Shown here in pieces: positions 652 through 38,501 of a DNA stretch of 39,505 nt. The notes beneath the pieces were generated by a model that saw nothing but the letters and a program-made list of their open reading frames with translations, did not search any database and was not told the origin of the DNA. Numbering within the stretch: the stretch's first letter is position 1; the number at the start of each line of letters is the position of its first letter. Source of the DNA: a virus. The stretch is from UHGV virus genome UHGV-1361754; one strand, written 5' to 3'. A program made the position numbers and the translations under genes.

Positions 652-677
652 GCCCCTCAAAATCGAGGGGCTTTTTT
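652..677 (+). terminator. Rho-independent terminator for the plus-strand accessory genes
   Basis: GCCCCTC-aaaatc-GAGGGGC hairpin followed by TTTTTT on the plus strand only. On the minus strand the hairpin is not followed by a U-tract. Confidence 0.6.
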
Positions 678-1693
678 CATCGTTGTGGAATATTCAAATA
701 CCAACGCTTGTCATGAAAATCTTGTGCTCCGCCTTTAGTGTTCCCTTCTGGATCATTCGTTGCACGCATCATGACATAGACTTTCTTATTAGGAAAATTA
801 CGCATATTGAAAGATACATGATAACCAACGTTTCCAGAAGTATTATAAGCTTGATTTACGTCTGGTCTATAAATCCCATCAGCTCTTACTCTAGCTAGTT
901 CTTTTCCAGTATTGTAGTCCATAATGAAAATATACTCGTATTTATAGTTAGCGATGTGCCATCCAGCGACGTGTAAGTTCGCATTTTCGATTTCTCCGAA
1001 CTGATCAATGTGGGCATAATTTGTTCCATCTGTCAGTGTAGGATTTGCTGCACCTGCTCGGGTTGGATCAACGACAGGCTTGTTCTTAGAAGTCGTCGGA
1101 TTTTTATCTGTAAAACCATGAGCTAAATCGTAAGCCAGTTTCTCCTTACTTATACCCATTTCTGATAAGTATCCATACGGATCTGTATGATCGCCCCAAA
1201 TGTTTTGTGTTACCCATAAATGCGATTTGATTCCTGGTTGGTTATAAGGAGTGTCCAATGTTAATGGAATACCATATTTTATTGCTGAATCTCTAGCCAA
1301 TTCAACGTACGCTTTATAATTCTTTTCAAATGTTACTTTATCGTGCGTATGCTGTAGTTCGATTTGCACAGGACTATTTGCATTAGCATATGAACCAGCG
1401 CCGTACTGTACATAACCAGGTTGTCCGACTTGGTAAACAATTCCGCCGTCTCCCACAATGTAAGCAGTGTAAGCACTAGTCCATGAACGTTGCATATACT
1501 GTGCTTCATTGCGTCCTGTTGCTGTTTCATTAGCCGTTTCATGCAGTAAAATGTACTGATTATTTGCTACTTGAGAGCTACCTTCATTTACACCTAAAGC
1601 GAACTCATCGTTGATCGTGTATGCAAAGGTATTTATCGGCAATAAAAAAAGAGCCGTTAATAGGCTCAATGACAATACTATTTTCTTTTTCAT
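677..1693 (-). CDS. Endolysin: N-acetylmuramoyl-L-alanine amidase (Amidase_2/PGRP-like) with an N-terminal Sec signal peptide and a C-terminal putative cell-wall-binding region
   Basis: N-terminus MKKKIVLSLSLLTALFLLPINTFA is signal-like. Amidase_2-type motifs (LLHETAN, GAGSYANANS..QIEL, KSHLWVTQNIWGDHTDPYGYL). Last gene of the late operon, directly after the holin. Confidence 0.8.
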   Translation of the reverse strand: MKKKIVLSLSLLTALFLLPINTFAYTINDEFALGVNEGSSQVANNQYILLHETANETATGRNEAQYMQRSWTSAYTAYIVGDGGIVYQVGQPGYVQYGAGSYANANSPVQIELQHTHDKVTFEKNYKAYVELARDSAIKYGIPLTLDTPYNQPGIKSHLWVTQNIWGDHTDPYGYLSEMGISKEKLAYDLAHGFTDKNPTTSKNKPVVDPTRAGAANPTLTDGTNYAHIDQFGEIENANLHVAGWHIANYKYEYIFIMDYNTGKELARVRADGIYRPDVNQAYNTSGNVGYHVSFNMRNFPNKKVYVMMRATNDPEGNTKGGAQDFHDKRWYLNIPQR

Positions 1694-7764: not shown

Positions 7765-10700
7765 CTACATCCTCCTAACCAAGATCTTCTGAATATCTAA
7801 AGCTAAATCTCTATCAGTTCGGCTATTTCCTTTGAAAAATGCCAGCAATAACGATAACAGCTGATTCGTTGTTGCCGCCTGTTTTTCAATGGCTTCTAGG
7901 ATTTCGTAATCACTGGAAACAGTTGTCGCATTTCCATAAGTTTTAGGAGAAACTCCTAGTTTGTCCATTGCGATAGACAATAATTGCATTGCTCTTGATC
8001 GTTTAGCCTTATCTAACGGAATAATAATTTCTGGCTTGTTTCCTTCTGCGATTTCCGCAATTTGATGTTGGTTTACAATTCCACCGTTTGCGTAACCATG
8101 ACCACGATAAGCATTTCTTAGTGAGCCATATCTTGACAACGCATATCTAATTGAAGCTAAGATGTTAGATAGTGGGTCATAGATATTACTATTGAATCCT
8201 GGCATTGCATACTGTCTGAATGTTGGGTCAATCATTTGAAGTAATCCTTTAGAAGGTGTGCCGTTTTTAGCGTTAATATCCCAGTTGTTAATTGCTCTAG
8301 GATTACCATTTGACTCTGTACGCATTTGGTTCAGCAATGCGTTTAAGTTTGCAGTACTGTATTGACCAGTCATTTTCAACGCTCTAATTGCTACATTTCG
8401 CCAGCGTTCTACGCCACTCCCACCAACGCTATCGCCACCGCTAACAAGTCCGCCCTGCGGATCTCTAACACCGTTCAAATGCACGTGGTCGTAGTGGTCG
8501 CCATCAGGCCATGTCCGCCAATCATCATGCACACCTGTACCTGATTGCCCTGAACGGTCACGAACTTTCCCATTAGTGATTACGTAGCCGATTTTGTTTG
8601 CAAACTTCTCAAATGCGTAATTGGCTGCTTCTGTGTATCTAGGGGAACCATTCACGACTCCCGGTAGCGCAATATCAATTGCATTGTGCTTTCCGTGTGA
8701 GTATGGATCGCCTTCACGATAACCTGAGGTTACTTGAAAGCCCGGGAATTTCTTCATTACTGCAACTGCAACGTCCGCCAAGTATTTGTAAACGCCTTGT
8801 ATGCCCATTGAAGTGTCTAAACTGCCACTGCTGAATAGTTCTGTGATTTTGTTCGTCAATGCTTCGGTAGCCTTGCTTAGAATACCTTTACCAACATCTA
8901 AAGGATATTTGACAAGCCCTTCCAGTACGCCAAGACCATTTAACACTTTCCTAGCCAACGCTCCCGGGTCTGTTACAAAATCCCATACATCGCCGGCTAC
9001 ATCTTTCAGCTTGTTTCCAACATCTCCAGCAAATCCTTTGACGTTGTTCCATAGATTTCCGAAAAAGCCTGTACCTTTGGCGTATCTATATCTTGGTGCT
9101 TTGTTTCCAGTCATATAAGCTGTTTCTTCAGCTGTTAGAACGTGTGTGCCTTTTGGTGCATTCAACACTACGTTTCGCCCTCGTGGGATAAATGCTTGTC
9201 CGGTAGGTGTGATTACCGCTTCAGCACCTCTACCGTCATTTACCATCATAGGCCCGCCCGGATGACCTCCGTTTGGTGTACCGTTAGCGTATTGTGGTAC
9301 ATCCCATTCTTGTAGAGGTTCAGCTCCCAATTTCTCAAGCACCCATGACGCTCCATGGATGATTGCGTTAACTGGTTCACCTATCGCTTTAAGTGCTGCG
9401 TTGAAAATACTTTTGAACGCATCAACAATAGCATTTTTACCGCCAATAATGGCATCCTTCATCTTCGTCGGTAGTTCTGAAAACCAATTGAATACTGTAT
9501 CAATACCGCTACGGAAGCTGTCTTTGATACCGTTCCACAGGTTACCGATTGCATCAGAAACATTGTTCTTCAATTCAATTGCTTTGTTGAAAATGTTTTT
9601 TACCCAGCCAACTACCTTATTCCAAGTGTCTCCAACGCCATTGTTGAAGAAGCTTTTCACGCTGTTCCACAGGTTTTGGATGAAATTGCCAAACGTGGTT
9701 TTCAGGTTGCCAGCTTTGCCCAACAGATTCATTACCCAATTGACTAGCTTATCCCAAGTGTTGGAAATACCTTCAATAAAGAAAGTTTTAGTGCTTTCCC
9801 ATAGCCCTTTTATTGAGCCTGAAAAACCAGTCCACAAACCTTTTACTCCTTCTAAAATCCGTTTGAAGAATAGTATTTGAATCCAGTTCCATACTGCTTG
9901 GATAGAACCCCAAAACAATTGTTTTACTCCTTCCCACATCTTAGAAAAATCGCCTGTAAATAAACCAGTGAAGATTTTGATAGCACCTTGAATGACGTTC
10001 ATAATCCCTTCGACTAAACCTATTATATTGTCAATGAACCCCATGACTAAATCCATAACGATTTTTACAACGGGCTGTATAAACGTAAAAAAGTTCTTGA
10101 TTGCTTCAATAATCTGTTTACCATTTTCATTCCAAAATGTGGTCATCGATTTTCCAATTTTAGAAAAAGCTCCGCCTATCTTTTCTATAATGGGCATTAT
10201 ATATGGCGACAAAGTATCGAAAATTCCTTTTGCAATTTGCCATCCAATTTCTATTCCGTTTTTTATGGTTGTCATAGTACCATCAAAATATGTTTTGAGA
10301 TTGTCGAAAACATCCTTTATCTTAGAGATTGTTTCTGGGGAAAAACCTAGTTTAGCCAGAACGTCTCCCATATCCGCTTTACCTTTGAATACGTCAAACA
10401 ATGTCTTAACCGCGTTCTTTATTTTTTCTATGGTATCTTGTGCGAAAGTAACCATTTCTGGTGGGAAAATTTTAGTTAGAATATCAAAGCCTTGCTTTGC
10501 TTGATCTCCATCTAACGTTCCAAACAGCGTTCCAAAAGCAGATGCTGCTACTTCAGCTCCTTTTTTCAACATGTCAAATACAGGTTGAGCAACGTTTTTT
10601 ATGCTTTCCATTGCTGGCTTGATTTTGGTTGTTAAGTTGTCAATCCCTTTGCCTATGTCGCCAATTAAAGAAGTGATATTGCCTTTGCCGAAAGCATTAA

Positions 10701-12132
10701 TTATTTCATTAATCATATTTACGGCGCTGGCTTGCAGATTTCCAACCGCCCCCTCAATCGTAGCTGTGGAACCTGCTGCCTTTTTAGCTACATCAGTCAT
10801 ACCTAATTGCATGAATGCTTCATTCAATTCTTCGGCAGAGATTTCTCCGTTTGCCATAGCCTCGCGGAAGTCTCCGTCAGTATAAGCGCCCATTTCTTTC
10901 AATGCTTGTTGAATTTTCCCTGAAGCGCCCGGAATGGCATCCGCAATCTGATTAAAGTTTTCAGTTGTTAATTTGCCAGCACCGACAGTTTGTGTCATTG
11001 CCATTGCTACCGATTTGAACGTATCTGCGTTACCACCTGAAACGGCATTGACATTACCGATTGCCTGCGTTAGACCATCAAAGTCTTTCACACCGTTGGC
11101 TGCCAACTGTGCAGTCGTATTCATTACGTCGCCTAGTTCATAAACCGTTTGGTCGGCGTAATCTTTCATCACTGTTTTAGATTCTTCAATTTTTGAATTA
11201 TCTATACCAGCAAATTGCATTGTTTGAACAAACTTGTCCATTGAATCGGAAGCCTCTACTGCTTCATCTGTCAACCCCATGAAACTGTTAACAACACCAC
11301 TAACTGCTTGTGAAGCTAATCCAGCAACTGCACCAAACGAAAATGCGCTTTTTAGCGAGCCTAATTTGTCTTTTAGCCCGTCCAGTTTCCTAGCTGACCT
11401 TGTGGACTTGTCGCCAAAATCTTCTATTTCTTTTCCTGATTGATCACTGGACCTTTCGAGTGTTTCTAATTGTCTACTGGATATTTGGCTTTGTCGTTCT
11501 AACTTTTCTAGTGCCCTTTTTGCATCTTCGGTTTCATCTGCTGAATCGCCAAACTCATCAGCCATCAGTTTCACAACTTTGCGCTGTTCTTCGATAGCTT
11601 TCTCGGATAATTCCGTTTGTTTGGCTAGCCCTTTTTGTTTTGCTTCAAACGCACCAGATTCATCACCAGCGGCTTTCAACGCTTTGACTTCGGCGTTCAT
11701 TTGCCGTTCATTTTCTTTGATTTCATCAGATAAATCATTGACGGCTGTTTTGGAATACACCAATTCTTTTTTTGTGTCATTCAACTGGCGACTGTAAGCA
11801 TTATATTTTGCGGTAGCATTGTTTATCTGTGTGTTAAGGTTAGCAACTTGTTTCGATTCCTCGCCATACTTGCTAATCGCTTCATCACGGCGCTTTGTTA
11901 ATTCTCTTACTTTGGCGTTTTGCCCTTCCATAACCGTAGACAAGTCTTTCGTCTTTTGACTAAGTGCTTCGTATGAACGTCCTGCTGAATCATAAGCCTT
12001 TAGATTGGCACGCATATTCGACTCAGCTTGTTTGACTTTCGCATTGATTTCGTCCAGCGTGTTACCAAAATTAGTGCTATCTAAACTAATCCCTAACTTG
12101 ATATTTCCTGCCGGTTGTCCTTTTCCTGCCAT
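7765..12132 (-). CDS. Tail tape measure protein with C-terminal peptidoglycan hydrolase domains (M23 peptidase + SLT lytic transglycosylase)
   Basis: 1455 aa. Coiled-coil N-terminus and repeated W/F-containing helical motifs (TWDKLVNWV, TWNKVVGWV, TVFNWFSEL). C-terminal HxxxD (KHNAIDIA) and HxH (HVHL) M23 motifs, then SLT motifs (RTESNGNP ... GLLQMIDPTF). Confidence 0.9.
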   Translation of the reverse strand: MAGKGQPAGNIKLGISLDSTNFGNTLDEINAKVKQAESNMRANLKAYDSAGRSYEALSQKTKDLSTVMEGQNAKVRELTKRRDEAISKYGEESKQVANLNTQINNATAKYNAYSRQLNDTKKELVYSKTAVNDLSDEIKENERQMNAEVKALKAAGDESGAFEAKQKGLAKQTELSEKAIEEQRKVVKLMADEFGDSADETEDAKRALEKLERQSQISSRQLETLERSSDQSGKEIEDFGDKSTRSARKLDGLKDKLGSLKSAFSFGAVAGLASQAVSGVVNSFMGLTDEAVEASDSMDKFVQTMQFAGIDNSKIEESKTVMKDYADQTVYELGDVMNTTAQLAANGVKDFDGLTQAIGNVNAVSGGNADTFKSVAMAMTQTVGAGKLTTENFNQIADAIPGASGKIQQALKEMGAYTDGDFREAMANGEISAEELNEAFMQLGMTDVAKKAAGSTATIEGAVGNLQASAVNMINEIINAFGKGNITSLIGDIGKGIDNLTTKIKPAMESIKNVAQPVFDMLKKGAEVAASAFGTLFGTLDGDQAKQGFDILTKIFPPEMVTFAQDTIEKIKNAVKTLFDVFKGKADMGDVLAKLGFSPETISKIKDVFDNLKTYFDGTMTTIKNGIEIGWQIAKGIFDTLSPYIMPIIEKIGGAFSKIGKSMTTFWNENGKQIIEAIKNFFTFIQPVVKIVMDLVMGFIDNIIGLVEGIMNVIQGAIKIFTGLFTGDFSKMWEGVKQLFWGSIQAVWNWIQILFFKRILEGVKGLWTGFSGSIKGLWESTKTFFIEGISNTWDKLVNWVMNLLGKAGNLKTTFGNFIQNLWNSVKSFFNNGVGDTWNKVVGWVKNIFNKAIELKNNVSDAIGNLWNGIKDSFRSGIDTVFNWFSELPTKMKDAIIGGKNAIVDAFKSIFNAALKAIGEPVNAIIHGASWVLEKLGAEPLQEWDVPQYANGTPNGGHPGGPMMVNDGRGAEAVITPTGQAFIPRGRNVVLNAPKGTHVLTAEETAYMTGNKAPRYRYAKGTGFFGNLWNNVKGFAGDVGNKLKDVAGDVWDFVTDPGALARKVLNGLGVLEGLVKYPLDVGKGILSKATEALTNKITELFSSGSLDTSMGIQGVYKYLADVAVAVMKKFPGFQVTSGYREGDPYSHGKHNAIDIALPGVVNGSPRYTEAANYAFEKFANKIGYVITNGKVRDRSGQSGTGVHDDWRTWPDGDHYDHVHLNGVRDPQGGLVSGGDSVGGSGVERWRNVAIRALKMTGQYSTANLNALLNQMRTESNGNPRAINNWDINAKNGTPSKGLLQMIDPTFRQYAMPGFNSNIYDPLSNILASIRYALSRYGSLRNAYRGHGYANGGIVNQHQIAEIAEGNKPEIIIPLDKAKRSRAMQLLSIAMDKLGVSPKTYGNATTVSSDYEILEAIEKQAATTNQLLSLLLAFFKGNSRTDRDLALDIQKILVRRM

Positions 12133-23462: not shown

Positions 23463-23667
23463 TGATATAATAAACTTGTTGGGTTTATTGAATCAGTCGG
23501 AGCGATCCGGCTTTTTTATTGTTTTATCTGTTTTAACTGTGCTAAACTTTTCGAGTAGTGAGGTTACGCTCACTATCCATATACATGTTGAGCTATCTGG
23601 CGGAAAACAGATGGCTCACTATTTCAATATTCTGCTAAGGACAGCCAGTGGTCGGCTGTCTTTTTTA
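23463..23667 (+). ncRNA. Candidate structured small RNA: extended -10 promoter, three consecutive hairpins, intrinsic terminator
   Basis: TGaTATAAT at 23463-23471. Hairpins at 23556-23575, 23590-23617 (10-bp stem with one GU) and 23640-23660 (GACAGCC-agtggtc-GGCTGTC) followed by TTTTTTAT. No credible ORF, since the 80-aa track ORF reads through all the hairpins. Confidence 0.3.
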
Positions 23668-23757
23668 TATTTTAATGAGAAGCCTTACTTATTTTTTTAT
23701 CTTTATTACGAAAAATGATATTATCTATTGATAATAAAGCGTATAGGAGATGGTTGA

Positions 23758-34141: not shown

Positions 34142-34170
34142 ATAATATCTCAGATTGAGATATGTGTCAA
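34142..34170 (-). promoter_or_regulatory. Early (cro) promoter TTGACA-17-TATTAT with the operator palindrome ATATCTCA-gat-TGAGATAT (34145-34163) in the spacer
   Basis: Read on the minus strand: TTGACAcatatctcaatctgagaTATTAT, a consensus sigma-A promoter. The perfect 8-bp inverted repeat lies inside the spacer. Confidence 0.6.
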
Positions 34171-34201
34171 TAGCTTTTTATCACTTTTTGAGATATTTTT
34201 A

Positions 34202-34237
34202 TTTACACGTTTATCGCAATGTGATATTGTTATCTCA
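34202..34237 (+). promoter_or_regulatory. Repressor-gene promoter TTTACA-17-TATTGT flanked by operator half-sites (TGAGATAT at 34188-34195, TTATCTCA at 34229-34236)
   Basis: -35/-10 spacing of 17 nt. Half-sites match the operator consensus. Confidence 0.45.
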
Positions 34238-34254
34238 TGAAGGAGGTGCCTTTA

Positions 34255-34962
34255 ATGAAGAAAAATATTTTAGGTTCGGTTATAAAGGACGCAAGAAAAA
34301 AGAAAAAACTTACTCAAGAACAACTTAGTAAATTAACTGGCTACAGTCAAAATACTATATCTAACCATGAAAACGGAAACCGATCCCTAGATGAAGATAA
34401 TATCAAAACTTATGCAACGGCTTTGGATTTAACTCCGGACGATCTTTTTGAGGCGTTAGATATTAAAAATTCTCTAGAAAACAAAATGATGAGTATCGAT
34501 AAAAAACAAACTAAAATAGATAATTTATTAGATTTGTATAGCCAATTGGAAGAGTCTCGCCAAACAAAAGTCTACAACTTTGCGGAATATCAATTGAGAG
34601 AACAAAACAAACATCCGAAAACTACAATTGAAATTCGAGGTTATGTGTCCGCTGGAACAGGTGAATGGCTAGAAGATGAAATTGTGGACGAAGTAAGTTA
34701 TGAAGGCGTGATACCTGAACATGATTTCGCAGTTAAGGTAAACGGTGATTCAATGTTACCGCTTTTCGAAGATGGACAAGTTATCTTTATTAAAAGCACA
34801 TCAGATGTGCGTGATGGTCAGATAATCGTATGCCAAGTAAATAATGAAGCGTTTGTTAAAAAACTGTCAGGTAACAAGCTAGTGAGTTTAAATAAAAAGT
34901 ATGAGGATATATCAATCTGTGATACAGATGATTTTAAAATTTATGGCGTAGTCGTTTTATAA
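34255..34962 (+). CDS. CI-like repressor (XRE HTH + S24 LexA-like peptidase domain)
   Basis: N-terminal HTH_3 (KKLTQEQLSKLTGYSQNTISNHENG). C-terminal S24 motifs (VNGDSMLP, FVKKL). Start at ATG 34255, 6 nt after AGGAGGTG. Confidence 0.85.
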   Translation: MKKNILGSVIKDARKKKKLTQEQLSKLTGYSQNTISNHENGNRSLDEDNIKTYATALDLTPDDLFEALDIKNSLENKMMSIDKKQTKIDNLLDLYSQLEESRQTKVYNFAEYQLREQNKHPKTTIEIRGYVSAGTGEWLEDEIVDEVSYEGVIPEHDFAVKVNGDSMLPLFEDGQVIFIKSTSDVRDGQIIVCQVNNEAFVKKLSGNKLVSLNKKYEDISICDTDDFKIYGVVVL

Positions 34963-35060
34963 AAAAATACCCCATTCGAAGGTACAACTTCGGCTAGGGT
35001 AGATGAACTATATGGGATATGGCTAATCCCCGTAAAAGAAAATATTAAGGAGGATTAAAA

Positions 35061-35792
35061 ATGGGATTTTGGGATTCTGTTAAATCTGGAGCTAAAGATA
35101 TCGCCAGACAAACATCATTAGAAAACATGATACAAAATAATAAGGAATTATCTACAGATGAGGTAAAAGAATTCATTGAGTTTAGTAAAATGACTCCAGA
35201 CGAAGCTATTGCAAAGAAACCGGCTCGCTATTTCAAGTCTACTAATAGATACGGCGAAGTTGAAATTGATTCTGTTAAAAAATTATTTCGAGTTAAACTC
35301 AATGTCTATACATTCGATGAATTAAATAGCTATGAGCTTTTGGAAAACGGCAGCTCCGTTATGAGTGGTGGATTAGGAATTGGACGGGCTGTTGTCGGTG
35401 GCGTCCTTGCTGGCGGCGTCGGTGCTATTTTAGGAGGAGTTACAAAGAAAAAGAAACAAAGAAATCATGTTGACTCTTTGAAAATCATGGTTACATTTAA
35501 GAATAGAACTCCTCAGTCAGTAACTTTAGACTACATCAAGAAGAAACAAGAAAAAGACAAAAAATACGAAAAAGCGTTAATGAAGGCAAAAGAAACAATG
35601 GCCGGTTTTGATTATATTGTTTCTGAATTAGAAGTTGATAGGCATGATGAATTCGTCAGTTCTACAAATGTGCAAAAAGAACAACCGACTACTTCAGCAG
35701 ATGAGATTCGTAAATTTAAAGAGTTGCTTGACGAAGGAATTATTTCGCAAGAGGAATTCGATGCTAAGAAAAAAGAATTACTAAACCTATAA
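35061..35792 (+). CDS. Membrane protein with glycine-zipper TM segment and C-terminal SHOCT-like motif (candidate superinfection-exclusion / abortive-infection protein)
   Basis: GGLGIGRAVVGGVLAGGVGAILGG helix. C-terminal EIRKFKELLDEGIISQEEFDAKKKELL. Strong RBS AAGGAGG. Located between the repressor and integrase on the lysogeny strand. Confidence 0.6.
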   Translation: MGFWDSVKSGAKDIARQTSLENMIQNNKELSTDEVKEFIEFSKMTPDEAIAKKPARYFKSTNRYGEVEIDSVKKLFRVKLNVYTFDELNSYELLENGSSVMSGGLGIGRAVVGGVLAGGVGAILGGVTKKKKQRNHVDSLKIMVTFKNRTPQSVTLDYIKKKQEKDKKYEKALMKAKETMAGFDYIVSELEVDRHDEFVSSTNVQKEQPTTSADEIRKFKELLDEGIISQEEFDAKKKELLNL

Positions 35793-35872
35793 AATACGCA
35801 CGCCCTCTCCCCTACCAAGTTTGAGTGACGTGAGATATTAGACCTATATAGTAGGCTTCTTTATAGTACCTA

Positions 35873-37114
35873 TTGTATCAGAGAAAGCGAGCTGATTCAA
35901 TTATGTCAGAAGTAACAGGATACTTAGAGCAAGTAGACAATGAAACATATAGACTAAGAGCTGTATTAGGGTACAAACCTGATGGCTCGGCAAAAAGAAA
36001 AAGCAAAACTATAAAAGCAAGTAGTAAAAGAGCGGCATATAAAGAATTGAACATCTGGTTAGAGCAATTCGAAGGAATGACCGATGATTCGTTGGATTTA
36101 TTCAATATAACTTTTGGTGAATTTTATAGAAAAATATGGCTTTCAGAAGCCGAAAAAAATTTAGAGCCAAAATCTTATCATAACTATAAGCGAATGATCG
36201 AGAATAGATTTCTTGATAAATTTGATTTTATCCCTCTAATCGATATCAAACCATACATGATAAAGAAAATTGTTGTTAATGCTCAAAGAATCAATACAAA
36301 AGATCCTGGGAGAAACTCTGATAAACCTTTATCAAGAAATACAAAGCTTCGTATGTTATACGCCGTTAACAACTTATTTTTGATGGCTAAAAATGAGTAC
36401 GGAGCAATTAAAGAAAACCCTGTGGAAAATGTAAAAATACCAAAAGAAAAAGGCGTAAAAAAGAATATCGAAGAACCTTATTCGGAAGAAGAAATTCATG
36501 CAATGCTAAAAGCAGCATTTGAGGAAAGCATAGAAATTAAAACTTTAATTGTTCTAGCATTTATTACAGGAGCAAGACAAGGAGAAATTGCAGCTTTAGA
36601 AGAACAAGATATTGACTTTGATAAACAAGAAATAAGATTTCATCAGCGGATTTCAGAAGTAGATGGAAAATCAGATATTCGGTTGCTTCCAGGTTTGAAA
36701 AATGATGATGATGAAAAAATAGTAACCGGTCCTGCTTATCTATTTGATATGTTAGATGAATTAATCAAAGAGAATAAAAAAATTCGTTGGAAATTAAATA
36801 TAAAGAAATTAAAACACTATTTTATATTTGATACAAAACAAGACGGAACTTTGCCACGTGGAAGTTATCTGTATAAGAAGTTCAAACGATTCACCAAACG
36901 TCGCAATTTGCGTCACATTCGTTTTCACGACATTAGACATACATCAGCTACCTATTTGCTTAGTGACCCTAATATGACTCCAAAAGAGCTTCAAAAACGA
37001 TTGGGACACCGAGATTTTAATACTACAATGAATGTTTATGGCCATGTCTTACGCAAAGAAAAAGATACAGCAACTACAGCGTTTGAAAACCTATTAAAAA
37101 AAGATATAAAATAA
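35873..37114 (+). CDS. Tyrosine integrase (site-specific recombinase)
   Basis: C-terminal catalytic motifs (RFHDIRHTSATYLL, LGHRDFNTTMNVYGHV). Start may be the internal ATG 35903. Confidence 0.9.
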   Translation: MYQRKRADSIMSEVTGYLEQVDNETYRLRAVLGYKPDGSAKRKSKTIKASSKRAAYKELNIWLEQFEGMTDDSLDLFNITFGEFYRKIWLSEAEKNLEPKSYHNYKRMIENRFLDKFDFIPLIDIKPYMIKKIVVNAQRINTKDPGRNSDKPLSRNTKLRMLYAVNNLFLMAKNEYGAIKENPVENVKIPKEKGVKKNIEEPYSEEEIHAMLKAAFEESIEIKTLIVLAFITGARQGEIAALEEQDIDFDKQEIRFHQRISEVDGKSDIRLLPGLKNDDDEKIVTGPAYLFDMLDELIKENKKIRWKLNIKKLKHYFIFDTKQDGTLPRGSYLYKKFKRFTKRRNLRHIRFHDIRHTSATYLLSDPNMTPKELQKRLGHRDFNTTMNVYGHVLRKEKDTATTAFENLLKKDIK

Positions 37115-37569: not shown

Positions 37570-38262
37570 CTATTTTCCTGTATGTTCAGTCACGATTTCT
37601 TGTGATCTGTTTGCTGTGTCTTCTACATCGCTTTTGGCTTTTTCCAGTTTTTCAATATAATTATTCAAATTACTGTTTTCTGATTGCGCTTTTTCTAGTT
37701 TTTGTTCAGTACTTTGCAATTGGTTTTTAATAGTATTTTTTTCATTTGACAATTGATTAATTTGTTGATTTAAACTATTAACAGTATTTTGAGCATCATT
37801 AAATTTATTTTGTTCTGTTTGTAAACGATTATTCCAATCAGTGTTTAATTGATTTATTTCAGCTATTTTTTGATTTATTTCATCAATTTTAGCATTGATT
37901 TCATTTTGTTTACCTTGCAATTCAGCATTTTTTCCTGATAATTGATTCTCTAAATTTGTTTTCTCTATAGTTAATTGATTTTTATCATTTTCCAAAGTCA
38001 ACACTTTTTGTTTATATTCTTCAACGTTAGCCTTTGCTTGCTCAAGTTCTTGATTATTTGAAGATAATCGTGAATTTAAACTACTAATATTTTGCTCTTT
38101 ATTTTCTAGTGCTTTATCTAATGACTCCAAATTATGATTGATTTGTTCAATATTATCTTCTCCACCCCATAACAAAATGTCATCGGCAAAGTTTTTCCCT
38201 GCGATCCCTGCTAACACTAATCCACCTATAATTAATCCACTTACTACAATTTTCTTATTCAT
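37570..38262 (-). CDS. Membrane-anchored Q/N-rich coiled-coil protein (accessory, unknown function)
   Basis: Start at ATG 38262 (RBS AAGGAGA). N-terminal signal anchor MNKKIVVSGLIIGGLVLAGIAG, then about 200 aa of heptad-like Q/N/E/K-rich sequence. Confidence 0.55.
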   Translation of the reverse strand: MNKKIVVSGLIIGGLVLAGIAGKNFADDILLWGGEDNIEQINHNLESLDKALENKEQNISSLNSRLSSNNQELEQAKANVEEYKQKVLTLENDKNQLTIEKTNLENQLSGKNAELQGKQNEINAKIDEINQKIAEINQLNTDWNNRLQTEQNKFNDAQNTVNSLNQQINQLSNEKNTIKNQLQSTEQKLEKAQSENSNLNNYIEKLEKAKSDVEDTANRSQEIVTEHTGK

Positions 38263-38501
38263 ATCATCATTCTCCTTAACATAAACTGAACTAATTATAG
38301 TTAATGATTTCACAATAAGTCAATTTAAATATATATTTTTTTATTTTATTTTTATAAATCTTTTCCTTAATTCGAATAAAGTCAGATGTAACTGCATACA
38401 AACATTTGAGAGTATAAAATATTTTGTGTAAATAGAAAAAAGGAAGTCCCTTCTGTAGAATAAAGTTACCACACCCATTCACAGAAAAGAGGACTTCCCT
38501 A

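What the first reader, a model, noticed from the sequence alone, without database searches (positions are those of the whole stretch)
35061..35792. SHOCT-motif glycine-zipper membrane protein between repressor and integrase: candidate superinfection-exclusion/abortive-infection gene
It is on the same strand as cI, with no obvious terminator in between, so it is probably expressed in lysogens. It occupies the int-cI slot where Firmicutes prophages usually carry sie/ltp/abi genes. It has a central GxxxG-rich helix (GGLGIGRAVVGGVLAGGVGAILGG) and a C-terminal SHOCT-like oligomerisation motif, an architecture compatible with membrane-acting exclusion or abortive-infection effectors.
Basis: inference. 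Interest (0 to 1): 0.55.

Follow-up and report, generated by a model that had tools for sequence, protein, structure and literature searches.

The report
Uncharacterised glycine-zipper SHOCT prophage accessory protein
This is a real prophage accessory gene for a probably membrane-associated protein from a large, catalogued but never-studied family; it sits where phages often keep genes that block rival phages, but no such role has been shown.

Summary
ORF 35061-35792 (+), 243 aa, has a strong ribosome-binding site and lies between a cI-type repressor and a tyrosine integrase. It carries a conserved glycine zipper (aa 103-128) followed by a lysine cluster, and a C-terminal SHOCT domain.

It belongs to Pfam PF27000 "PH_gly_zipper" + SHOCT, with about 1,900 clusters at 50% identity, all named sources Bacillota. 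Most relatives have an N-terminal DUF4428 zinc ribbon; here a helix replaces it. The AlphaFold2 model shows a beta-sandwich capped by a long helix, with the zipper as a 35-residue insert.

The gene is a mobile accessory cassette ("moron"). The identical protein sits beside different cI alleles, and a 94%-identical copy sits beside a different integrase. Relatives occupy the same slot in phiadh, phiEF-1.1 and pneumococcal prophages, and an accessory island before the tape-measure gene in C. difficile phages.

It is unrelated to Sie2009 and matches no PADLOC model. The closest analogue is L. lactis bIL285 Orf2 ("sie285", bPH_3 + SHOCT), which is made in lysogens but has no reported resistance phenotype.

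An exclusion or abortive-infection role is plausible but untested. The "SHOCT = oligomerisation" premise is not supported by the only experiment.

The parts
34142..34230 (.). Genetic-switch region with divergent promoter-like sites. On the - strand: TTGACA-17-TATTAT (34170-34142), facing the cro-like gene. On the + strand: TTTACA-17-TGnTATTGT (34202-34230), facing cI.
   Evidence: Consensus scan. The + strand -10 element ends 7 nt before the cI ATG at 34237, so the cI transcript may be leaderless (inference).
34237..34962 (+). cI/LexA-type repressor (HTH_3 + Peptidase_S24). It is the probable source of transcription into the finding.
   Evidence: Pfam: Peptidase_S24 at 4.8e-23 and HTH_3 at 1.8e-13.
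34968..35001 (.). Conserved hairpin directly after the cI stop codon. It has no U tract on the + strand. On the - strand it is followed by U7, making it terminator-like. It marks the left mosaic boundary of the cassette.
   Evidence: Folding: -14.1 kcal/mol (+ strand) and -16.3 kcal/mol plus U7 (- strand), z = -3.1 and -3.9. It is conserved in L008 and L009, whose cI 3' ends are unrelated.
35047..35053 (+). Shine-Dalgarno sequence AAGGAGG, 7 nt upstream of the ATG.
   Evidence: Sequence.
35061..35792 (+). The finding: a 243-aa protein with PH_gly_zipper (PF27000) + SHOCT.
   Evidence: PHROG phrog_888 (unknown function) at 1.3e-45.
35061..35231 (+). N-terminal helical region (aa 1-57). It starts MGFWDSVK, is amphipathic, and has no signal peptide and no cysteine. 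It takes the place of the DUF4428 zinc ribbon found in most relatives.
   Evidence: AlphaFold2 helices 3-25, 32-42 and 46-57. Hydrophobic moment 0.5 for aa 1-18. Alignment A1.
35232..35372 (+). First part of the beta-sandwich (aa 58-104, six strands), ending in the conserved YELLE(D/N)G motif.
   Evidence: AlphaFold2 pLDDT above 90. Conservation.
35367..35444 (+). Glycine zipper, aa 103-128 (GGLGIGRAVVGGVLAGGVGAILGGVT).
   Evidence: Invariant A110, G113 and G121. Kyte-Doolittle 1.84. pLDDT below 50 in monomer models.
35445..35462 (+). Basic cluster KKKKQR (aa 129-134) directly after the zipper.
   Evidence: Net charge +4. A K/R cluster is conserved across the family, median 4.
35478..35681 (+). 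Second part of the beta-sandwich (strands 140-146 and 153-159) and the long capping helix (aa 167-207).
   Evidence: AlphaFold2. Y169 and A176 are nearly invariant.
35700..35783 (+). SHOCT two-helix domain (aa 214-241).
   Evidence: Pfam PF09851, E = 1e-9. AlphaFold2 helices 212-224 and 230-240.
35825..35867 (+). Promoter-like sites and a conserved ACCTATAyArTAGGCTT element upstream of int. This is the right mosaic boundary of the cassette.
   Evidence: Homology to phage 4995_2 begins at about 35842.
35903..37114 (+). Tyrosine integrase. The 403-aa form starts at ATG 35903; the longest ORF starts at TTG 35873.
   Evidence: Pfam. Called as 403 aa in six related contigs.

Best explanation
The gene is a lysogeny-module accessory gene (a "moron"). 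It is probably read through from the cI promoter in lysogens. The protein has no signal peptide, so it stays in the cytoplasm. I propose that it attaches to the inner face of the cell membrane through three elements: the SHOCT hairpin, the N-terminal amphipathic helix, and the hydrophobic glycine zipper with its lysine collar. By analogy with bacterial PH domains, which form 5- to 12-membered rings, the beta-sandwich domains would assemble into a ring. That ring would present a bundle of glycine-zipper helices to the membrane.

My preferred function is exclusion of superinfecting phages at the membrane, most likely by interfering with DNA entry, in the manner of superinfection exclusion.

Shown here: the gene, its domains, the conservation, the mobility of the cassette, and its position.
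Inferred: expression in lysogens, membrane attachment, oligomeric ring formation, and any anti-phage effect.
For: **Accessory cassette**
- The identical protein sits beside five cI alleles of 212-241 aa.
- A 94%-identical copy sits beside a different integrase.
- Phage 4995_2 has a 96%-identical integrase but different cargo in this slot.

**Same slot in other phages**
- Relatives occupy the repressor-integrase slot in phiadh ORFA (35% identity, E = 1e-22), phiEF-1.1 and pneumococcal IPP36. Streptococcus satellite phages also carry the domain.
- Of 80 viral loci, 16 have an integrase among the two nearest genes on either side, and 24 more have only HTH regulators there.

**Membrane cues**
- Kyte-Doolittle 1.84 for the zipper, followed by KKKKQR.
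- Some relatives carry two N-terminal transmembrane helices or a bPH_2 domain ahead of the same module.
- SHOCT-like domains are predicted to anchor proteins to the inner leaflet (PMC11237479).
- PH or DUF4428 modules replace the transmembrane anchor in homologues of SNIPE, a membrane-bound nuclease that cleaves phage DNA during injection.

**Precedents**
- Bacterial PH domains form C5 and C12 rings, and membrane pores were hypothesised for them (PMC2817789).
- bIL285 Orf2 (bPH_3 + SHOCT) sits in the same slot and was detected in the lysogen proteome. sie309 and sie312 from this slot block DNA injection.

**Transcription**
- No canonical + strand terminator lies between cI and the gene.
Against: - No family member has a tested phenotype in the literature I could search.
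- There is no PADLOC hit.
- Proven Gram-positive exclusion proteins (Sie2009, Ltp) face outward, whereas this protein is mostly cytoplasmic.
- No resistance phenotype is reported for bIL285 orf2 in the text I read.
- Family members also lie in late-gene accessory islands (C. difficile myophages; the putatively virulent phage PMBT5). In 21 bacterial genome loci only 4 have an integrase nearby, and several neighbours are ordinary metabolic genes.
- The conserved hairpin after cI could reduce read-through.
- The PH fold was not recovered by Foldseek.
- Ring formation was not modelled.
Confidence: 0.35

Rival explanations
1. Abortive-infection effector. The protein waits at the membrane in a closed state. 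On infection, the glycine-zipper helices of an oligomer insert into the membrane and depolarise or permeabilise the cell, killing it before phage release.
For: - In-phase GxxxG zippers of about 25 apolar residues are typical of pore-forming membrane helices (established knowledge). The motif is strictly conserved here.
- S. aureus PdpSau is a single prophage-encoded membrane-anchored protein that causes abortive infection with loss of membrane potential (PMC10127798).
- Membrane pores were hypothesised for bacterial PH-domain rings.
Against: - No sensor or enzymatic domain was found, and no partner gene is conserved in the Enterococcus loci.
- There is no PADLOC match.
- There is no toxicity evidence.
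- There is no sequence relation to PdpSau-type or any other known abortive-infection protein in the Pfam or PADLOC scans.
Confidence: 0.2
2. Lysogenic-conversion factor that changes membrane or envelope physiology of the host (stress tolerance, sensitivity to antimicrobial peptides, autolysis), with no direct anti-phage role.
For: - Prophage bIL285, which carries the PH + SHOCT orf2, raises sensitivity to lysozyme and nisin. The authors suggested Orf2 as the mediator (PMC6127208).
- The bacterial PH protein YozO belongs to the envelope-stress response (PMC2817789).
- SHOCT-like domains recur in phage-shock-protein (PSP) membrane-stress gene neighbourhoods.
- Several genomic copies lie beside ordinary chromosomal genes.
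Against: - The strong association with phage accessory slots, including phages and satellites from many genera, suits a phage-centred function better.
- The link between bIL285 orf2 and the phenotype is only a suggestion.
Confidence: 0.25
3. A function in the phage's own lytic cycle at the membrane, such as lysis timing, help with its own DNA entry or exit, or counter-defence against a membrane-bound host defence system.
For: - In C. difficile myophages the gene sits in the late operon directly before the tape-measure gene.
- In the putatively virulent phage PMBT5 it sits beside a Lar-like restriction-alleviation gene and a pentapeptide-repeat gene.
- There is a weak profile match of the zipper to a tape-measure PHROG, phrog_973, E = 0.004.
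Against: - In those phages it sits among other accessory genes (Bro-N proteins), and its presence is variable.
- It was not among the structural proteins found by mass spectrometry in PMBT5, although only six were identified.
- It has no significant similarity to this phage's own tape-measure protein.
- In the window it lies in the lysogeny module, transcribed opposite to the lytic genes.
Confidence: 0.1
4. A soluble cytoplasmic protein. The glycine-rich segment is a flexible loop or a protein-protein zipper, not a membrane element.
For: - The segment has pLDDT below 50 and no predicted helix in the monomer models.
- Both flanks belong to one folded domain, which excludes a simple single-pass topology.
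- The solved bacterial PH rings have surfaces judged unsuited to direct membrane binding.
Against: - The segment has a strongly apolar composition (Kyte-Doolittle 1.84) and is followed by a conserved basic collar.
- Relatives have two N-terminal transmembrane helices.
- SHOCT and DUF4428 both have membrane-targeting associations.
Confidence: 0.1

Closest known systems
Pfam PF27000 PH_gly_zipper + PF09851 SHOCT proteins (annotated by NCBI as "SHOCT domain-containing protein" or "DUF4428 domain-containing protein"); examples are Lactobacillus phage phiadh ORFA, C. difficile phage CDMH1 gp21 and Enterococcus phage EH-TP1 gp70
   Same: - Direct homologues: phiadh ORFA at 35% identity, E = 1e-22; EH-TP1 gp70 at hhalign probability 99.9%; CDMH1 gp21 at 33%.
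- They share the core domain, the zipper, the basic collar and SHOCT.
- Many sit directly beside an integrase.
   Different: - Most relatives start with a DUF4428 zinc ribbon. The window protein and its close Enterococcus and Vagococcus relatives have an N-terminal amphipathic helix instead, and no cysteine.
- None of them has a known function.
Lactococcus lactis prophage bIL285 Orf2 ("sie285"), and the wider set of (DUF4428) + bPH_3 + SHOCT proteins such as Enterococcus phage vB_ElaS_B1578 gp30
   Same: - Same slot between the repressor module and the integrase.
- Same order of parts: N-terminal region, a PH-type domain, a linker, then SHOCT.
- Orf2 was found in the lysogen proteome and was listed among sie genes.
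   Different: - bPH_3 has no glycine-zipper insert.
- Profile comparison aligns only the zinc ribbon and SHOCT with confidence, not the central domains.
- No resistance phenotype is reported for sie285 in the text I could read.
Sie2009 (Tuc2009 orf2), sie309 and sie312: lactococcal superinfection-exclusion proteins that block DNA injection
   Same: Same genomic slot, same strand as the repressor, expressed in lysogens, membrane-associated.
   Different: - No sequence similarity (BLASTP E = 0.41).
- Sie2009 has an N-terminal transmembrane helix plus a tRNA_anti-like (OB-type) domain, which would face outward.
- The window protein has no N-terminal transmembrane helix.
PdpSau, a S. aureus prophage-encoded membrane-anchored abortive-infection protein
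   Same: A single prophage accessory protein with a membrane-binding helix and a positively charged cytoplasmic part. It acts through the membrane.
   Different: - It lies beside the lysis genes, not between cI and int.
- Its fold is different.
- No homology was detected in any scan.
[quoted passage not shown]
   Same: The same kinds of module (DUF4428 zinc ribbon, PH-like domain) are reported to stand in for the transmembrane anchor. The authors argue that these modules place the nuclease at the membrane.
   Different: - The window protein has no DUF4041 or nuclease domain.
- Homology between the SNIPE N-terminal modules and PF27000 was not tested.

Membership tests
Pfam PF09851 SHOCT | Match to the 28-residue two-helix model above the gathering score, close to the C-terminus. 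| tested here: met
   aa 214-241, E = 1e-9, 38.3 bits against a cut-off of 27. AlphaFold2 shows a helical hairpin at 212-240.
Pfam PF27000 PH_gly_zipper | Match to the family model. | tested here: met
   The precomputed Pfam hit PF27000:PH_gly_zipper is recorded for this exact protein on six contigs and for all 120 listed homologues. The local Pfam copy lacks this model, so I did not obtain a score myself.
PH-like (pleckstrin homology) fold | A seven-stranded beta-sandwich closed by a C-terminal helix, with structural similarity to solved PH domains. | tested here: inconclusive
   The AlphaFold2 models (pLDDT 82) show eight strands followed by a long helix at 167-207. Foldseek against the PDB gave no hit with E below 0.3 for either the whole protein or the domain alone. 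hhalign against a DUF4428 + bPH_3 + SHOCT profile aligns the central domains only at low confidence.
DUF4428 (PF14471) zinc-ribbon subgroup of the family | An N-terminal CxxC...CxxC zinc ribbon. | tested here: not met
   There is no Pfam hit and no cysteine in the protein. The alignment shows a helix in place of the ribbon.
Transmembrane glycine zipper | At least three in-phase (G/A/S)xxx(G/A/S) repeats within an apolar stretch of about 20 residues. | tested here: met
   The family median in-phase chain is 6. G103/104, G108, A110, G113, G118, G121/A122 and G125 are conserved. Kyte-Doolittle 1.84. Whether the segment is actually in a membrane was not tested.
Integral (bitopic) membrane protein | A hydrophobic helix that crosses the bilayer and places its flanks on opposite sides. 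| tested here: inconclusive
   Hydrophobicity passes the classical 1.6 threshold. However, both flanks fold into one domain at pLDDT above 90, and there is no signal peptide. A re-entrant or bundle insertion is more likely (inference).
Sie2009-type superinfection exclusion proteins | Sequence homology to Sie2009, with an N-terminal transmembrane anchor and an outward-facing domain. | tested here: not met
   BLASTP E = 0.41. Sie2009 is tRNA_anti-like. The window protein has a polar N-terminus.
Ltp-type lipoprotein exclusion proteins | A signal peptide with a lipobox cysteine. | tested here: not met
   The protein contains no cysteine and has no hydrophobic N-terminus (sequence).
T4 Imm-type (PF14373 Imm_superinfect) and known defence systems (PADLOC) | Match to the family or system models. 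| tested here: not met
   No such Pfam hit at E up to 1. No PADLOC families at E up to 10.
Superinfection exclusion or abortive infection (functional class) | Reduced plating efficiency of challenge phages, with either a block of DNA entry (exclusion) or death of the infected cell (abortive infection). | not testable with these tools
   The evidence is only positional and architectural.
Lysogeny-module accessory gene (moron) co-transcribed with the repressor | Same strand as cI, no terminator in between, variable presence between related phages, expression in lysogens. | tested here: inconclusive
   Strand, mosaic boundaries and variability are met. There is no canonical terminator, but there is a conserved hairpin of -14 kcal/mol. 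Expression was not testable.

The most novel reading that the evidence does not exclude
PH_gly_zipper + SHOCT proteins are a widespread, structurally new class of phage-encoded membrane effectors in Bacillota. In this reading, a ring of PH-like domains on the inner face of the membrane presents a bundle of glycine-zipper helices. The bundle either plugs the DNA-entry channel formed by the tape-measure protein of incoming phages, or opens as a suicide pore. That would make this the first exclusion or abortive-infection mechanism of its kind described for Enterococcus prophages. It would also give a function to about 1,900 clusters of orphan proteins, and possibly to the related bPH_3 + SHOCT "sie285" group.
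Probability: 0.3. Interest if true: 0.65.

Novelty: new member of a known kind. Interest (0 to 1): 0.42.

Why it matters
Enterococcus prophages shape phage sensitivity, which matters for phage therapy against E. faecium and E. faecalis, yet none of the papers my searches returned describes a prophage-encoded exclusion gene for this genus.

This family is very common in accessory slots of Bacillota phages: Enterococcus, Lactobacillus, Streptococcus pneumoniae prophages and satellites, and C. difficile myophages. It has no assigned function.

A tested phenotype would annotate thousands of genes. It would show what SHOCT and bacterial PH-like domains do. It could also explain host-range gaps in phage panels. 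If the gene proves to have no anti-phage role, it is an ordinary unknown-function accessory gene.

Tried and rejected
**Searches that led nowhere**
- **Structure search.** Foldseek of the full model and of the domain-only model against the PDB gave nothing significant. Against the viral library BFVD it returned only other unnamed SHOCT proteins.
- **Profile search of PDB sequences.** Nothing was found.
- **Known defence or immunity families.** NCBIfam gave only sub-threshold noise such as EssA and PdsO. PADLOC gave nothing.
- **Fusion partners.** Twenty longer relatives showed only zinc ribbons, extra transmembrane helices, one bPH_2 domain and SHOCT. No enzyme domain turned up.
- **Literature.** Searches for DUF4428, PH_gly_zipper, SHOCT with phage or defence, and glycine zipper with exclusion found no functional study. 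Mahony et al. 2008 (PMC2570291) is not held, so the phenotype of sie285 could not be checked.

**Ideas considered and rejected**
- **Homology to Sie2009.** Rejected.
- **Mimicry of this phage's own tape-measure protein.** There is no significant similarity. The phrog_973 hit (E = 0.004) is a weak match confined to the zipper segment.
- **A promoter of its own between the hairpin and the ATG.** The scan found none, and that stretch is not conserved in L008.
- **tRNA-linked attachment site.** There is no tRNA in the window.
- **GvpG, TANGO2 and STALD Pfam hits.** All are below their cut-offs and were dismissed.
Full report
**1. The observation**

The window is a whole Enterococcus siphophage genome of about 39.5 kb.
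- It has an Amidase_2 lysin at 677-1693 (-) and a TMP_3 tape-measure gene at 7765-12132 (-).
- Identical copies of the finding lie on 39.6-kb contigs.
- Its lysogeny module lies at the right end, on the + strand.

ORF 35061-35792 (+) encodes 243 aa, and AAGGAGG sits 7 nt before the ATG. The gene upstream (34237-34962) is a cI/LexA-type repressor with HTH_3 + Peptidase_S24. The gene downstream is a tyrosine integrase, most likely 35903-37114.

The quoted GxxxG-rich segment is at aa 103-126. SHOCT (PF09851) matches aa 214-241 at E = 1e-9, above the curated cut-off.

The zipper is not chance.
- In 74 homologues down to 31% identity, A110, G113 and G121 are invariant.
- Seven further small residues are at least 90% conserved.
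- The median in-phase small-xxx-small chain is six repeats.
- A K/R cluster always follows.

**2. What the protein is**

PHROGs places the protein in phrog_888, a family of unknown function (1.3e-45). The large protein collection returns 233 relatives. Every one of the 120 listed carries the precomputed Pfam pair PF27000 + PF09851, and PF27000 is named PH_gly_zipper. A full HMMER scan with the central domain alone finds 1,897 clusters at 50% identity with E up to 0.001. All named sources are Bacillota: Enterococcus, Vagococcus, lactobacilli, Clostridioides, Bacillus and Sporosarcina, Lachnospiraceae and Erysipelotrichaceae.

The usual architecture is a DUF4428 zinc ribbon, then PH_gly_zipper, a linker and SHOCT. 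The window protein and its close relatives replace the ribbon with a helix that starts MGFWDSVK, and they have no cysteine.

AlphaFold2 with the family alignment gives a confident model (pLDDT 82) with these parts:
- N-terminal helices;
- eight strands (62-104 and 140-159);
- a long capping helix (167-207);
- a SHOCT hairpin (212-240);
- the zipper and basic collar (105-139), a low-confidence insert between two strands of the same sandwich.

This topology is what one expects of a PH-like domain. However, Foldseek found no significant PDB match for the whole protein or for the isolated domain. A profile comparison with the parallel DUF4428 + bPH_3 + SHOCT family aligns only the ends with confidence. 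I therefore treat "PH-like" as Pfam's label, compatible with the model but not confirmed here.

**3. Genomic behaviour**

The gene is a mobile accessory cassette.
- The identical protein lies beside five different cI alleles of 212-241 aa.
- The left boundary of the shared DNA is a conserved hairpin directly after the cI stop codon (34968-35001). It persists even where the cI 3' ends are unrelated.
- On the right, homology with Enterococcus phage 4995_2 (96%-identical integrase) begins at about 35842. That phage carries other cargo in the slot: a 606-aa polytopic membrane protein, an S24 fragment and a DUF4177-like ORF.
- E. dongliensis has a 94%-identical gene beside a different integrase.

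Relatives occupy the same repressor-integrase slot in several other phages:
- Lactobacillus phage phiadh, ORFA (35% identity, E = 1e-22);
- phiEF-1.1;
- pneumococcal prophages such as IPP36, where the protein has a zinc ribbon and the domain but no SHOCT.

Streptococcus satellite phages also carry the domain. Enterococcus phage EH-TP1 carries a member just after int.

Among 80 viral contigs the nearest neighbours fall into these groups:

| Neighbours of the gene | Loci |
|---|---|
| Tyrosine integrase among the two nearest genes on either side | 16 |
| Only HTH regulators there | 24 |
| C. difficile-type myophages, island between the XkdN-like chaperone and the tape-measure gene | 21 |
| Other | 19 |

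In the C. difficile group the gene sits together with Bro-N genes; CDMH1 gp21 is the example. The putatively virulent Eggerthella phage PMBT5 carries a member beside a Lar-like gene and a pentapeptide-repeat gene. In 21 bacterial genome loci only four show an integrase within three genes, and several neighbours are ordinary metabolic or restriction-modification genes. The family is therefore phage-rich but not phage-exclusive.

**4. Expression**

Divergent promoter-like sites lie at 34142-34230. No canonical + strand terminator separates cI from the gene. The hairpin (-14.1 kcal/mol) has no U tract on the + strand. On the - strand it is followed by U7 and looks like a terminator for antisense transcription. 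The stretch between the hairpin and the ATG is not conserved in L008, which argues against a dedicated promoter. Read-through from cI is thus the simplest inference, but it is not shown.

**5. How it most likely works**

Several independent cues point to the inner face of the membrane.
- The 25-residue apolar zipper scores 1.84 on the Kyte-Doolittle scale, and a conserved KKKK collar follows it.
- The N-terminal helix is amphipathic.
- Some relatives place two transmembrane helices or a bPH_2 domain in front of the same module.
- SHOCT-like domains are predicted to anchor proteins to the inner leaflet (PMC11237479).
- PH or DUF4428 modules replace the transmembrane anchor in homologues of the injection-site nuclease SNIPE.

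Both flanks of the zipper belong to one folded domain and there is no signal peptide. A simple single-pass topology is therefore unlikely. A re-entrant insertion, or insertion as a bundle, is more likely (inference).

Solved bacterial PH domains form C5 and C12 rings, sometimes through a C-terminal helical hairpin. Their authors hypothesised membrane pores for membrane-linked versions, and noted PH proteins in phage lysogeny modules, including bIL285 ORF2 (PMC2817789). I therefore propose a sub-membrane ring that presents a bundle of zipper helices.

What that assembly does is open. My estimates are:

| Function | Confidence |
|---|---|
| Exclusion at DNA entry | 0.35 |
| Gated suicide pore (abortive infection) | 0.20 |
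| Envelope-physiology conversion factor | 0.25 |
| Role in the phage's own lytic cycle or counter-defence | 0.10 |
| Not membrane-associated at all | 0.10 |

**6. Comparison with known systems**

- The protein is a member of PF27000 + SHOCT.
- It is not a member of the Sie2009 family (BLASTP E = 0.41; Sie2009 is a tRNA_anti-like protein).
- It cannot be an Ltp-type lipoprotein, because it has no cysteine.
- It has no Imm_superinfect match and no PADLOC match.
- Its closest characterised neighbour by position and architecture is bIL285 Orf2 ("sie285", bPH_3 + SHOCT). That protein was named sie by position.

**7. Verdict**

This is a real, conserved, mobile accessory gene. It belongs to a catalogued but functionally unknown family and sits in a slot known for exclusion genes. 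The exclusion or abortive-infection idea is reasonable and cheap to test, but it is unsupported by any direct evidence, and the family's wider distribution leaves non-defence roles open. I rate interest as moderate (0.42) and classify it as a new member of a known kind.

Noticed in passing
window 34968-35001: A conserved hairpin sits directly after the cI stop codon and is preceded by A7. On the - strand it reads as a hairpin followed by U7 (-16.3 kcal/mol, z = -3.9), which makes it a canonical terminator for antisense transcription. It is also the recombination boundary shared by prophages with unrelated cI 3' ends.
   Followed up: partly
window 23556-23671 (+) and 38434-38501 (-): Two Rfam matches above the gathering score: Enterococcus sRNA Ref1C (98.6 bits) and Ref64 (48.7 bits), both inside the phage genome.
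   Followed up: no
window 37570-38313 (-): A 247-aa protein with an N-terminal hydrophobic helix and a long Asn/Gln-rich coiled coil, lying between the integrase and the lysis genes. It is also present in L005 and L007. This looks like a second accessory-gene region near the presumed attachment site.
   Followed up: no
L003 (Enterococcus phage 4995_2) 1107-3447: This phage has a 96%-identical integrase but carries different cargo in the slot: a 606-aa polytopic membrane protein with no Pfam match, a 70-aa Peptidase_S24 fragment, and an 87-aa DUF4177-like ORF.
   Followed up: partly
window 35838-35856: The element ACCTATAyArTAGGCTT upstream of int is conserved in all five compared loci, including one with an unrelated integrase and one with different upstream cargo. 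It may be part of the int promoter or a regulatory site.
   Followed up: no
window 34202-34237: The + strand promoter-like site (TTTACA-17-TATTGT, with a TG extension) ends 7 nt before the cI ATG. The repressor mRNA may therefore be leaderless, as for lambda PRM.
   Followed up: no
L091 (C. difficile phage CDMH1) 1720-4841, and about 20 IMG/VR contigs: C. difficile-type myophages have a variable accessory island between the XkdN-like tail chaperone and the tape-measure gene. It holds Bro-N genes and the PH_gly_zipper + SHOCT gene.
   Followed up: partly
L093 1928-2635; L176 1341-1886; proteins P0264-P0383: A parallel family with the same three-part plan but with bPH_3 in place of PH_gly_zipper (DUF4428 + bPH_3 + SHOCT). 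It also lies beside integrases in Enterococcus and Lactococcus phages, and it includes bIL285 orf2 ("sie285").
   Followed up: partly
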